A DNA stretch of 64,000 bases from Girardia tigrina. Taxonomy: Eukaryota. The stretch covers positions 18,114 through 82,113 of the forward strand of contig MQRK01232790.1 of the NCBI GenBank assembly GCA_001938485.1, read 5' to 3'. Position numbers: made by a program. Positions 35,140 to 38,931 of this stretch are shown in pieces; within the stretch, counting starts at the first letter, position 1; the number at the start of each line of letters is the position of its first letter.

Positions 35140-36759
35140 AAATAGACAAAAAATTCAAAAATTATAAATTTATTTTCCAGAAATTTGTAATATACCGGGT
35201 CGGCCAAATTAGTGATTTCACAAATAATATGATAGAGTACATAATAATAGAGTGTGTTGCGCAGCGGTTCCGTGGCCGTGACACCCCAGCATCGGGGGAT
35301 GGACTACGAGTCGGGAGGAATAAGAAACTATCTAACTCGATAAATTTTTTACTCCTCGGCCACTTGTCTTACAATCTATCTCTGCAATGATCCTCCTCAA
35401 CAATTCCGGATTGCCCTTCAATCTCTCTTGGAATGACTCGATTAACTCATCGATATCTTGTTCCCCAGAGAGATCGATCACCAACTCGACAGTCGACGAA
35501 AATCCGTCCTCATTGTCTTTGGTTTCATTATCCCTTTCGATAAATTTCACAATCGATCCGGTCGATTTCGTTAAAATAGAATTTTTAGAATTATCTTCTT
35601 TATTTTCAGAAACGTTTTTCGACATGGCCACTGCCGATTCCGATTGTTTGGTGACCATAACGAGAATGAAGCTCTTTTCATTGTACACGAGACTATCGAT
35701 ACTTTGATTGTTTTCCAAATTTTTTCCTTTGAAAATCAATTTCAATCGATCGGCGGGGAATTCTGATCCGTGTTAACTTTCGATTTTCGATTTCAAATCG
35801 CCAATGGAATTGTGGTTGTCGACATAGACGTAAAAGAGTTGTCGGTTCAATGTTTTGAGAGTCAATTGCATAATGACATAAATTGAGTTGAATTTGGTCA
35901 TATCGATTCGTATGACGAAATATTCGATTTCCTTTTTCTACAAAAATGAAAATGAAATTAGAAATTGTCTCATTCGATTTTTGGATTCATTGATTTGATC
36001 CGTTTTGGTTGTGAGAAAAAATTAACTATTGTGTCAACAAATTTCAAATCACTCCAATAATACGATTTCAAAAAAAATATGGCTGCTCACAAAACTCAAC
36101 TCAAAAAATTTATTTTATTTCAATTAAACAAAAACAATTAAAAAATTAAATTCGATTTGATTAACACAATAAAAAAAATTTGATTCGAAATTTTGTTTGT
36201 TTGACTTTTTGGCCAATCAGAACTGGCCACGAACAACACACAGTCAAACAGTAAAAAATCAACAAACACAAGATTTTCAATGTTCGACAATCCTCCATGC
36301 ATACACTCCAGGTTCACAATCGACAAATTAGCGAAATCGTGTGGAGACCTCTCTGCTAACAATCGTACATGAGCTGTCTTTGATTTTCCTGAATCAGTAA
36401 AAAATGTTTTGTATAATTTTCTTGGAAAATATTTGGAAATAATGGAAATAATTTGAGCGATTTTTGTTTGAATGGGATCATAAATCGATTTTAATTGATT
36501 CGGTTTGTTGGAAAGGTCGTTGAAGTTTTCAATTGCAACGCCTGATATATGTTTTGTGGATATCTTTGGCAACGACGAAAGATGTTTCCAACGGACGCTC
36601 ATTGAAACCCATTTTGAAGTTTCGACACGTTAACGAAAACCGAAACGAGTTTTGAGCGATGGAATTCGAAGAGATTTTATAACGAATTTTTGATTATTGA
36701 AGTATTTCTTAGTCTTGGGTCGGGTTTATCAGAAGTGTCATTCTGCTGATTTATACATT

Positions 36760-36792
<33 letters not shown>

Positions 36793-36842
36793 NNNNNNNN
36801 NNNNNNNNNNNNNNNNNNNNNNNNNNNNNNNNNNNNNNNNNN

Positions 36843-36885
<43 letters not shown>

Positions 36886-38931
36886 AGTTTGTTCACAATG
36901 TCGACCGTTTAAAAACAATACAATCCATACCACACCTCGACTGGCAATGTAACCTTAGGCAATCGTTGTATCAGTAGCTGAGTTAATAAAATTCTGAAAT
37001 TCGAAAGAAATTTGTTTGACTTTGATAAAGAATTATTAAAATTGTTGACGTTTTTTGAAAATTTTATCGATTTGATAGAATTTTGGAGAAACGATTCTAA
37101 GATTAGCTCAAGGAAAGAACAAATTGAGTTTTAATAGAATTTTAAACTTTTGCTCGCAAGGCAGTACACATGTTTAAATGTATTCTAATTCATGCGAAAC
37201 AGAAAGTAGTATCATGAGTCATATACTGTATTTCATTACTGTGTGTGGTACTTTGGTCTTTGTGTATTGTAGAAAAGAGTTTGTCACTTTGCATATGGAT
37301 GAATTAGTGTGTATTTTATAGAGAGTCCATATTTGTGATAAGTCTATTTGTTGACAGTTGGTCAGCCTTTCCAAGTGCAAGGAGTACTCCATTGTATACT
37401 TTTATTTTCTGTATTGGGTTCACATTTATTTCTTGTTACAAACCAGCTATGTCCTGCGATATCACCACGGAATTGCAAAACCAAATTGTGACGTTACGTC
37501 AGTATACGACGAAATCTAACAGAGAGATTGCACGCAATTTGAAAATCTCTCATTTTGCTGTGAATAGTGTCCACTAATAGACGGGGAAGATGTGGACGAA
37601 AGGCCAAGTTAACCAATAGAAAAAAGACGGTTATTCTTCGTTAGTGCAAGAAGGATTCTCAGCAAACAGCCCAAGTGATGCGGTGTAACACAGGTTTAAC
37701 GGCACTTTCTGTGTCACTGAGAACCGTCAAGCTTGTTCTGAATAATGGTGGATTACTCGTCTATCTTTGTTAAAGAACAATGTATGTCGATATGGCAAAG
37801 GATTAACACGTGCAGAAGTCATCAAGAAAGCACATGAAATATTGTTCAAGGATACTAAACTCCCAAGCATGTGTATTTCTTGTGTGTCATTAATGCCTCA
37901 GCGAATTCGAATGATCATAAAAAATTGTGATGACTCTTGCTTGTATTGAATTATAATCTTTTTATCTTAGTTTTTCAATTTTCTCTATCATATTATATAG
38001 GGAATAACTAATTTGCCCGACCATATATATATATAAAAGTTTGACTGACCATTAATATGACATTATTATGTCAATCATAATTAATTTCGCAAAATATTTA
38101 TTGAGTATTGTTGCAATATAAGGATAATGAGTATAATACGAAGTTTTTGTATGGTATATTGAAGGATTTAATATGACTAAGGAAACAGGATTGTAAGGCT
38201 GATGATATAAGTGATGGAGATTTGGGTCCAAGCTTTGCAGTTCGAAAACAAATAAGAATTTTTTTATTATATTTGAGGGACAGCTCTCAAATTTTAAATT
38301 TTTTTTGTAAATTTCTTGTTGGTTATGTTCTTTTTTTCTTTTTGTTATCTAAAATTCCTAAAATTTTTACTTGAAGACAAACATAATCAAAAGATGTTAA
38401 AAATAAACATAGCTTTAGAAGAGATAATGTTTACTAAATACACAGAAAATAATATGAAAATAAAAATAGAGATTTTAAAGTAGTAAATAATGGTATTTAA
38501 TAGTATGGTGTATAAAAATACACATATAAAATATAAATATTTTTTTTAATTTTAGTTTTGAAAGTTTTCCTAAATTTTCTTAAGAGCACGAAACATTTTT
38601 TTATTAGTAATGTAAAAAATTAATTTCAAAATTATTTCAACCTTTGATTTTTGGTGTTTAAAGATTACAGGAAATGATAATCAAGCAAAGCTGGGGGGCA
38701 AGGATTCAAAATATTCTAAATGAATAAGAATCTACAAATTTTGCTTGAGCTTATCTTAAGAAACTGTTGCTAACCAATTTTGAGTTTCTCGAAACTGAAA
38801 AAGGCAATTTTTTTATAATTAAATTTGAAACGAAAAGCCATCTTGCTATTCAAGCTACAATTATTTAGAAATTTCTTCGGATTTAAAAAATATAATTTTT
38901 TTTTATTTTAACTTTTAGAAATCATTAAAAA

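What the first reader, a model, noticed from the sequence alone, without database searches (positions are those of the whole stretch)
35195..38025. Tc1 element carrying a RAD23-like gene fragment and flanking host DNA (Pack-Tc1 capture or LINE 3' transduction)
Seen: matched TA-flanked TIRs enclose, between the left TIR and the transposase remnant, about 1.9 kb (35263-37150). This holds a RAD23-like ORF with one stop, an upstream splice acceptor (tttttgtag near 35938), intergenic-looking DNA with a CCAAT box and a (TA)n tract. No other left TIR is visible near the transposase. The borders read tgttgcgca and tgctcgca, a possible TSD. Inference: one route is gene capture by a Tc1 element, well known for MULEs and Helitrons but much less so for Tc1. 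The other is 3' transduction by the short RTE-like tail at 35258-35330, which sits exactly where RAD23 similarity stops. A nucleotide-excision-repair/proteasome-shuttle gene fragment would thus have been moved into an intron of the amine oxidase gene.
[Added by the scan's program, not by the reader: the finding's places include an assembly gap (unread letters, written N; its length is only estimated) at 36793 to 36842. Whether the letters on both sides are continuous or in frame is not known: test that first.]
Basis: partly seen in the sequence, partly recalled or inferred. Interest (0 to 1): 0.7.

Follow-up and report, generated by a model that had tools for sequence, protein, structure and literature searches.

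The report
Decayed transposon holding host gene fragments
A worn-out cut-and-paste transposon in an AT-rich animal genome encloses broken pieces of two unrelated host genes; this kind of pick-up is already catalogued in animals, and nothing here shows the cargo ever moved.

Summary
The inverted ends are real: 48 nt at 81% identity and 34 of 43 positions without gaps. No other copy lies in the window. The left end is TA-flanked. The right end runs into a (TA) run, and the outermost 3 nt differ.

The "RAD23-like" ORF (minus strand, one in-frame stop) has only a ubiquitin-like domain. No UBA or XPC-binding domain was found.

The "intergenic-looking" DNA holds the window's longest open stretch. 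It encodes the first ~190 residues of an RGS/Axin-like protein, with two stops, one frame change and the C-terminus missing.

The transposase remnant, the Tc1 family label and the "RTE-like tail" got no tool support. The proposed TSD is at chance level.

The gap at 36793-36842 lies inside a (TA) run, as do all three 50-N gaps. Whether the two sides join could not be tested.

Best reading: a single-copy "Pack-TIR", made when foreign DNA filled a break in a dead Tc1/mariner-type element. In animal genomes, 115 such TcMariner cases are already in print (PMC8277862). I rate it an ordinary new member of a known kind.

The parts
35195..38025 (+). Whole TIR-bounded element as delimited by the finding. 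It includes a 50-N gap.
   Evidence: TIR pair. TA on the left flank. No other copy in the window.
35195..35240 (+). Left terminal inverted repeat
   Evidence: 34 of 43 positions identical to the reverse complement of the right end. The outermost 3 nt differ.
35258..35330 (.). GC-rich piece (60% GC against 28% for the window). Its origin is unknown.
   Evidence: GC. No Rfam match. No tRNA. Unique in the window. Fold z-scores 0.51 and 0.34.
35332..35871 (-). Ubiquitin-like-domain ORF, broken by one in-frame stop. About 100 further codons match no known domain.
   Evidence: Pfam ubiquitin on both pieces in order. PDB hits cover the UBL part only. Atlas gives ubiquitin-family clusters only, best score 0.89. 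No near-length relative found.
35872..36263 (.). AT-rich spacer (26.5% GC) between the two gene fragments.
   Evidence: No Pfam hit on any ORF of 20 codons or more.
36264..36741 (-). Fragment of an RGS/Axin-like gene, from its first codon to about residue 190 of 270-280. Broken by 2 in-frame stops and 1 frame change. The C-terminal 80-90 residues are absent.
   Evidence: Representative search hit P0001, E 1.2e-14. tblastn of P0001 and P0003. Break counts. Alignment A1. Pfam RGS on P0001 and P0003.
36762..36879 (.). (TA)n microsatellite with the 50-N assembly gap (36793-36842) in its middle
   Evidence: All 3 of 3 50-N gaps of the window lie in such runs.
36880..37448 (.). Unassigned DNA. It could be cargo or the element's own 5' part.
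   Evidence: No Pfam hit. No repeat.
37449..37946 (+). Putative transposase remnant, unconfirmed. The frame of its ATG holds 5 stops in 166 codons. There is too little room for a catalytic domain.
   Evidence: Stop counts. Only sub-threshold helix-turn-helix hits. PDB gave nothing relevant.
37983..38025 (-). Right terminal inverted repeat
18029..18167 (+). Context: exon 1 of the host flavoprotein (amine-oxidase-like) gene, with the dinucleotide-binding motif
   Evidence: Pfam Thi4, NAD_binding_8 and DAO. PDB hits. Splice donor seen.
33581..33668 (+). Context: exon 2 of the same gene. The 3' end is approximate.
   Evidence: Motif hit. PDB amine oxidoreductase 8t8a, E 0.018, chain residues 46-71. 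Acceptor site and reading phase read.

Best explanation
This is one old, non-autonomous element of the Tc1/mariner superfamily. It sits downstream of exon 2 of an amine-oxidase-like gene.

Between its left end and what remains of its own interior lie about 1.5-1.9 kb of foreign DNA. That DNA carries decayed pieces of two unrelated host genes, both antisense to the element: a ubiquitin-like-domain ORF and the first ~190 codons of an RGS/Axin-like gene.

The most likely route is repair of a double-strand break inside the resident element. The repair copied DNA from elsewhere in the genome by template switching ('gap filling'). This gives a single-copy Pack-TIR of the kind Tan et al. 2021 describe for animals. 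That route needs no transposition of the cargo.

Shown: the TIR pair, the two gene homologies, their breaks, and the absence of a second copy in 64 kb.

Inferred: that both ends belong to one element, that the sequence is continuous across the gap, the repair mechanism, and the order of events.
For: - A matching TIR pair in the right orientation, 2.8 kb apart, unique in the window.
- The interior holds host-gene-derived DNA. The RGS/Axin-like fragment matches at E 1.2e-14 and by tblastn at E 7e-17 and 2e-18.
- Both gene pieces are broken: 1 stop in one, and 2 stops plus 1 frame change plus truncation in the other. Dead duplicates would look like this.
- The element itself is decayed. The TIRs are 79-81% alike, and the putative transposase frame has 5 stops in 166 codons. 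This fits a relic that was filled rather than an active carrier.
- Cargo size is within the 100-5000 bp used to define animal Pack-TIRs. TcMariner accounts for 115 of 370 such cases, and single-copy cases are attributed to gap filling (PMC8277862: abstract, passages and section 14 read).
- All 3 of 3 50-N gaps sit in (TA) runs. This favours an unresolved microsatellite over an arbitrary join.
Against: - The left TIR and both gene fragments lie on a 1702-bp piece with gaps on both sides, so contiguity is unproven.
- No parental copy was seen within 35 kb upstream or 26 kb downstream. Tan et al. report that parents are often within 15 kb.
- No eukaryotic genome or repeat library was on hand. Copy number, parent loci and breakpoint microhomology are therefore all untested.
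- The transposase remnant and the superfamily label rest on TA plus short TIRs plus sub-threshold helix-turn-helix hits only.
- The cargo borders are undefined.
- Both gene fragments are intron-free over their matched lengths, which a retrocopy would also show.
Confidence: 0.45

Rival explanations
1. Retro-insertion into a dead element. A read-through or chimeric RNA was reverse-transcribed into the transposon by a LINE-type enzyme. In minus-strand order the RNA carried the RGS/Axin-like 5' part, then the UBL gene, then a LINE/SINE-type 3' tail (the GC-rich piece). This is the nearest workable form of the reader's 'transduction' idea. The host sequence would lie upstream of the tail, not downstream of it.
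For: - The GC-rich piece sits about 20 nt after the UBL stop, at the 3' end of the minus-strand unit.
- Both gene pieces lack introns over their matched lengths.
- A 9-of-12 direct match lies next to 35257 and 36880 and could be a decayed target duplication.
- The window holds a reverse-transcriptase-bearing Penelope-like element.
- Tails shared by LINEs and SINEs, RTE clade included, are what 'stringent' enzymes recognise (PMC3747384, passages read; PMC4176376, abstract start seen in the listing).
Against: - The 9-of-12 match is reached by 234 of 3000 random pairs, so it is not significant.
- There is no poly(A) and no clear terminal microsatellite.
- The GC-rich piece matches no Rfam family and has no second copy in the window.
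- The 392-bp AT-rich spacer looks like unspliced genomic DNA.
- No LINE of the RTE type was found in the window.
Confidence: 0.15
2. Two neighbouring insertions of one family flank native intron DNA. One insertion is reduced to its left ~45-60 bp, and the other lacks its left end. The gene fragments between them were never moved by the transposon. This is the starting state of the hybrid-element model proposed for Pack-CACTA elements.
For: - The model is in print (review PMC13317346, passages read; Gisby and Catoni PMC8903248, passages read).
- No internal feature ties the left end to the right part. The left TIR is followed within about 20 nt by unrelated DNA.
Against: - It needs two insertions in the same orientation and two complementary deletions.
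- No other copy of this family lies in 64 kb.
- It leaves unexplained why two unrelated broken gene pieces sit in this intron.
Confidence: 0.12
3. Assembly artefact. The 1702-bp piece between the two (TA)n gaps is misplaced, or the gaps hide much more sequence. In that case the two ends do not bound one 2.8-kb unit.
For: - The piece is short and has a gap on each side, and both joins lie in (TA) runs. There are 11 such runs of 10 or more units in the window.
- The sequences just after both gaps are alike for about 9 nt (family D2).
Against: - A misplaced piece would have to bring, by chance, a matching TIR in the correct orientation for a family with no other copy in the window.
- All 3 of 3 50-N gaps are in (TA) runs, which points to a systematic failure to size microsatellites rather than to loose scaffolding.
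Confidence: 0.12
4. LINE 3' transduction. A short RTE tail at 35258-35330 carried the DNA to its right (35331-37150) as a read-through.
For: Only the position of the GC-rich piece at the edge of the UBL homology.
Against: - No LINE body is present.
- No tail or poly(A) sits at the far end near 37150.
- The proposed TSD is at chance level: 1580 of 3000 random pairs reach it.
- Enzymes that need their own 3' tail would not prime on a read-through RNA that ends in host sequence (PMC3747384, passages read). Whether this applies to the RTE clade in this animal is my inference.
Confidence: 0.04

Closest known systems
Single-copy Pack-TIRs of animal genomes (Tan et al. 2021, Nat Commun, PMC8277862)
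   Same: Non-transposon DNA of 100-5000 bp lies between two end pieces of one degenerate TIR element. TcMariner is one of the two main superfamilies (115 of 370 cases). Most cases are single-copy and are attributed to transposition-independent gap filling.
   Different: Their set required a parental copy at 90% identity or more, and it excluded retrocopies. Here no parent could be looked for, the cargo is old and broken, it comes from two genes, and an assembly gap lies inside. Their species list is in supplementary data that I could not open.
Pack-Mariner elements of rice and maize (Gisby and Catoni 2022, PMC8903248)
   Same: TA-flanked, short-TIR, non-autonomous elements carrying gene fragments. 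[quoted passage not shown]
   Different: Those are plant Stowaway-type elements. Some form small multi-copy clusters with evidence of mobilisation. No such evidence exists here.
Turmoil-1 of C. elegans (Sela et al. 2008, PMC2572040)
   Same: An animal DNA transposon that took up fragments of two protein-coding genes.
   Different: Turmoil-1 is a Harbinger element and the fragments lie in its 760-bp terminal repeats. Here the fragments are internal and the ends are about 45 nt.
RAD23 (UBL-UBA-XPC binding-UBA shuttle factors)
   Same: An N-terminal ubiquitin-like domain. RAD23A/B chains are 8 of the 47 PDB sequences matched, best E 0.0049.
   Different: No UBA or XPC-binding domain. Every RAD23 match covers only query residues 3-51. 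Ubiquitin itself and parkin match the same stretch.
Axin
   Same: The two relatives of the second fragment have an RGS domain above the Pfam cut-off. Both also have a sub-threshold Axin beta-catenin-binding motif at matching positions.
   Different: The relatives are only 270-280 residues and show no DIX domain. No PDB Axin chain was hit by sequence or by profile. The window's copy lacks the part that holds the motif.

Membership tests
Tc1/mariner (IS630-Tc1-mariner) superfamily | TA target-site duplication | tested here: inconclusive
   TA precedes the left end. The right end runs into a (TA) run, and the outermost 3 nt of the two ends differ.
Tc1/mariner (IS630-Tc1-mariner) superfamily | Short terminal inverted repeats (under 100 bp) | tested here: met
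   About 45-48 nt at 79-81% identity.
Tc1/mariner (IS630-Tc1-mariner) superfamily | DDE/D transposase with an N-terminal helix-turn-helix domain | tested here: not met
   No DDE-domain hit on any of 90 ORFs of 20 codons or more. Helix-turn-helix families hit only at E 0.003-0.15, below cut-offs. PDB gave nothing relevant. A non-autonomous relic need not keep the transposase.
Tc1 family proper (as opposed to mariner, pogo and others) | Family-specific transposase and TIR sequence | not testable with these tools
   No repeat library and no named transposase hit. My impression that the last ORF resembles a Tc1-type C-terminus is recall only.
RAD23 | N-terminal ubiquitin-like domain | tested here: met
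   Pfam ubiquitin, E 2.6e-6, above the cut-off.
RAD23 | Two UBA domains | tested here: not met
   No UBA hit at E <= 1. No PDB match outside the UBL part except one chance-level coatomer hit.
RAD23 | XPC-binding (STI1-like) domain | tested here: not met
   No hit at E <= 1. The structure model was too poor to use, mean pLDDT 35.
Pack-TIR (criteria of PMC8277862, section 14) | Internal non-TE sequence flanked by two end pieces of the same TIR element, each covering the terminus | tested here: met
   'Same element' is judged from the mutual match of the ends, not from a consensus.
Pack-TIR (criteria of PMC8277862, section 14) | Internal sequence of 100-5000 bp | tested here: met
   About 1.5 kb (35258-36741) to about 2.2 kb (up to 37448), plus an unsized gap.
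Pack-TIR (criteria of PMC8277862, section 14) | Unique parental copy elsewhere, at 90% identity or more, not itself flanked by TEs | not testable with these tools
   No genome of this organism was on hand. None was found inside the window.
Pack-TIR (criteria of PMC8277862, section 14) | Cargo is not a retrocopy of a multi-exon parent | not testable with these tools
   Parent gene structures are unknown. Both fragments are intron-free over the matched parts.
LINE 3' transduction | LINE sequence directly upstream of the carried DNA, in the same orientation | tested here: inconclusive
   Only a 73-nt GC-rich piece of unknown nature. No Rfam match and no other copy.
LINE 3' transduction | Poly(A) or LINE tail at the distal end, and target-site duplications | tested here: not met
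   None near 37150. The proposed TSD is reached by 1580 of 3000 random pairs.
Axin | RGS domain | tested here: met
   Above the Pfam cut-off in 2 of 2 relatives. The window fragment aligns to that part but does not itself reach Pfam at E <= 0.5.
Axin | Beta-catenin-binding motif and DIX domain | tested here: not met
   The motif is below the cut-off in 2 of 2 relatives, and DIX is absent in both. The window fragment ends before that region.

The most novel reading that the evidence does not exclude
The element is, or recently was, one member of a mobile Pack-Tc1/mariner family. That family carries a two-gene cassette (a UBL gene plus the 5' part of a lineage-restricted RGS/Axin-like gene) and spread it to several TA sites. 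The UBL ORF has only one stop in about 179 codons. It may still be transcribed antisense inside the amine-oxidase intron as a young chimeric gene.
Probability: 0.07. Interest if true: 0.55.

Novelty: new member of a known kind. Interest (0 to 1): 0.3.

Why it matters
If the structure is real, it adds an invertebrate example to the catalogue of DNA transposons that enclose host gene pieces. That is one route by which exons get duplicated and shuffled. This example is unusual in holding pieces of two unrelated genes.

The RGS/Axin-like gene family behind one fragment is very rare in public data. Only one true relative cluster turned up among 1.84 billion representatives. A small lineage-specific gene family is therefore visible only through its dead copy here.

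In practice the case is a warning. A ubiquitin-like domain alone is not RAD23, 'intergenic-looking' AT-rich DNA can hide a gene fragment, and short pieces between microsatellite gaps need read-level proof.

Tried and rejected
- Word-index protein search with the UBL piece, near lengths: no hit. The same search with amine-oxidase exon 1, longer lengths: no hit. This organism's proteome is probably not in that database.
- Atlas look-alikes: only generic ubiquitin clusters for the UBL piece, best score 0.89, a lead only. Nothing for the 163-codon ORF.
- PDB search with the 154-residue ORF, with P0001 and with profile A1: nothing relevant.
- Representative search: one of its two hits (P0002, 1443 residues, 9 short repeated stretches) was dropped as a repeat-motif match.
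- I briefly read the 154-residue ORF as a P-loop/ORC-like protein. I rejected this once P0001 turned up.
- Structure models of the UBL piece (mean pLDDT 35.0) and of P0001 with alignment A1 (39.4) were too poor.
- Inverted or direct repeats at the cargo borders: only 7-13-nt chance matches.
- tRNA, Rfam and folding tests on the GC-rich piece were all negative.
- Search for downstream amine-oxidase exons:
  - 267 ORFs of 45 codons or more from position 17200 on, both strands.
  - 145 of the 402 shorter + strand ORFs. Only the 161 with GC of 0.32 or more were taken, less 16 already scanned.
  - A listing read by eye.
  - None found.
- One search scanned 90 of the 98 ORFs. Five had been scanned, and three lie beyond the right end.
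- Genome contigs holds only bacteria and archaea, so I did not use it.
- Metagenome contigs, viral contigs and paper supplements were closed.
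Full report
SETTING

The window is AT-rich, 28.4% GC. It is crowded with transposon relics.
- Mariner-type helix-turn-helix and DDE pieces lie at about 29.2-30.0, 52.9-53.6 and 54.9-55.2 kb. A DUF4817 helix-turn-helix piece lies at about 49.0-49.4 kb.
- A Penelope-like element with reverse-transcriptase and GIY-YIG hits lies at about 41.7-47.0 kb.

Nothing in the window looked human. It has seven N runs. Three are exactly 50 N long, and all three lie inside (TA)n runs. None of the four other gaps does.

THE GAP, TESTED FIRST

The gap at 36793-36842 has (TA)n on both sides. No ORF or homology crosses it. The nearest homology is the first codon of the RGS/Axin-like fragment at 36741, about 20 nt before the (TA) run. 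Reading frame across the gap is therefore not an issue.

Physical continuity cannot be tested without reads. One point the finding did not state matters here. A second 50-N gap lies at 35041-35090. The left inverted end and both gene fragments therefore sit on a 1702-bp piece (35091-36792) with a gap on each side. The regular (TA)n context (3 of 3) suggests unsized microsatellites rather than loose joins, but this is inference.

THE ENDS

- blastn of 35140-38060 against the window found one inverted match besides the self-hit: 35190-35237 against 38030-37983, 48 nt at 81.25%, E 2e-6.
- The repeat finder reports the same pair at 53 nt and 79%. The other 24 of the 25 longest inverted pairs shown, out of 227, are (TA)n/N self-matches.
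- Without gaps, 34 of the first 43 positions agree. The outermost three do not.
- TA precedes the left end. The right end runs into a (TA) run.

The pair is real and old. TA flanking is plausible but only half-shown.

THE 'TRANSPOSASE REMNANT'

- Between 37449 and 37946 the frame of the ATG has 5 stops in 166 codons. The longest open stretch in that frame is 67 codons.
- Pfam gives only helix-turn-helix families below their cut-offs: Sigma70_r4 at E 0.003, HTH_38 at E 0.047, and the Sleeping Beauty HTH at E 0.15.
- None of 90 ORFs of 20 codons or more in 35165-38062 hit a transposase catalytic domain.
- PDB searches with the two longest pieces gave nothing relevant.
- To my eye the last ORF ends like a Tc1-type transposase, but that is recall, not a test.

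The superfamily call rests on TA plus short TIRs. The family call (Tc1) is open.

THE 'RAD23-LIKE' ORF

On the minus strand, 35871->35335 reads through about 179 codons with one in-frame stop.
- The pieces on either side of the stop match Pfam ubiquitin in order: profile 1-29 at E 0.14 and profile 33-71 at E 2.6e-6. This is one ubiquitin-like domain.
- No UBA or XPC-binding hit appears at E <= 1.
- Of 47 PDB sequences at E <= 1, 8 are RAD23A/B chains, best E 0.0049. Every one of these matches only query residues 3-51. Ubiquitin and parkin match the same stretch.
- The Atlas returns only ubiquitin-family clusters, best score 0.89, below its own 0.9 line.
- A near-length relative search found none.
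- The structure model was unusable, mean pLDDT 35, so no fold search was made.

Verdict: a ubiquitin-like-domain gene copy. It is not demonstrably RAD23.

THE 'INTERGENIC-LOOKING' PART

The stretch 36141-36629 (minus strand) is the longest open stretch in the whole window, at 163 codons. A full HMMER search of 1.84 billion representatives gave two hits at E <= 0.001.
- One hit, P0002, is a 1443-residue repeat protein matched in nine short stretches. I dropped it.
- The other, P0001 (270 residues), matches at E 1.2e-14 and 52% identity. A word-index search from P0001 added P0003 (280 residues, 67% identical to P0001).

Both relatives carry a Pfam RGS domain above the cut-off. Both also have a sub-threshold Axin beta-catenin-binding motif at matching positions. 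Neither has a DIX domain. No PDB chain was hit by sequence or by profile, and the model of P0001 was poor (mean pLDDT 39.4).

tblastn places P0001 residues 1-71 at 36741..36532 in one frame (55% identity, E 7e-17). It places residues 82-190 at 36560..36270 in another frame. Counted against the relatives, the fragment has two in-frame stops and one frame change, and it lacks the last 80-90 residues. The cargo therefore holds pieces of two unrelated genes in tandem on the minus strand, separated by a 392-bp AT-rich spacer.

THE BORDERS

1580 of 3000 random pairs from the window reach this.
- A match I noticed myself, 9 of 12 next to 35257 and 36880, is reached by 234 of 3000 random pairs, so it is not significant either.
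- No inverted or direct repeat marks the cargo ends.
- The GC-rich piece (35258-35330, 60% GC) has no Rfam match, is not a tRNA, has no second copy in the window, and folds no better than shuffles.
- Whether the piece is RTE-like needs a repeat library that I did not have.

THE HOST GENE

- Exon 1 (18029-18167, + strand) holds a dinucleotide-binding motif. It hits many flavoenzymes, amine oxidases among them.
- A short motif recalled from memory located one hit in six frames, at 33583.
- The ORF around that hit matches a PDB amine oxidoreductase at chain residues 46-71, E 0.018. Its acceptor site and reading phase fit exon 1.
- The two exons were searched one by one. The joined step was left out.
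- No further exon was found downstream in the window.

'In an intron' is therefore likely, because most of such an enzyme is still missing after exon 2. It is not shown.

MECHANISM

The anatomy is two ends of one degenerate TIR element enclosing 1.5-2.2 kb of host-derived, non-transposon DNA. This is what Tan et al. 2021 call a Pack-TIR. I read their abstract, passages and methods section 14.
- They list 370 cases in 100 animal genomes, 115 of them with TcMariner elements.
- They attribute single-copy cases to transposition-independent gap filling, with template switching, a bias to nearby parents, and microhomology.

I take that as the best reading here, at 0.45. The element is a relic, the cargo is dead and composite, and no second copy is seen in the window. 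Against it, no parent lies in the window, and contiguity is unproven.

The rivals are:
- Retro-insertion of an RNA that ends in a LINE/SINE-type tail. It draws on PMC3747384 (passages read).
- Two neighbouring insertions around native DNA. This is the hybrid model reviewed in PMC13317346 (passages read) and in PMC8903248 (passages read).
- An assembly artefact.

NOVELTY

- Gene pick-up by Tc1/mariner-type elements is in print for animals (PMC8277862) and for plants (Pack-Mariner, PMC8903248).
- An older animal case is Turmoil-1, a Harbinger element (PMC2572040, abstract and passages read).

This would be one more member of that kind. Its two-gene cargo and the rarity of the RGS/Axin-like family are minor points of interest.

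LEFT UNCHECKED

- Copy number in the genome.
- Parent loci.
- A repeat-library comparison.
- Cluster names for P0001 (one search was not available).
- The closed collections (metagenome and viral contigs).
- The supplementary lists of the papers.

Noticed in passing
window 41664-47030: A Penelope-like retroelement, with reverse-transcriptase and GIY-YIG hits on the minus strand. It is bounded by 977-nt inverted arms that are 99% complementary (41664-42640 and 46054-47030). The left arm stops exactly at an N run. A DUF4817/mariner-like ORF pair (44410-45314) seems to be nested inside it. Described only.
   Followed up: partly
window 17681-17730, 35041-35090, 36793-36842: All three 50-N gaps lie inside (TA)n runs, while none of the four other gaps does. 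The longest ungapped (TA) run is 48 nt. The assembly seems unable to size longer (TA) microsatellites.
   Followed up: yes
window 35125-35147 and 36867-36889: The first 9-10 nt after the (TA) runs that follow the two gaps are alike (family D2, 87% over 23 nt including the TA part). This could be chance in AT-rich DNA, or a trace of duplication or assembly at the microsatellites.
   Followed up: no
window 18168-33580: Intron 1 of the amine-oxidase-like gene is about 15.4 kb. It holds at least one mariner-type relic (HTH_48 and Transposase_1 hits at 29204-29972).
   Followed up: partly
proteins P0001 and P0003 (relatives of window 36264-36741): The small RGS-domain, Axin-like family (270-280 residues, no DIX domain) has only one relative cluster among 1.84 billion representatives. 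Both known members come from unnamed records. It looks like a lineage-restricted family.
   Followed up: partly
window 15674-16021, 52894-53913, 54941-55520, 58104-58367, 62324-63098: Several further mariner-type transposase relics lie on both strands. None is related at the DNA level to the element of the finding.
   Followed up: partly
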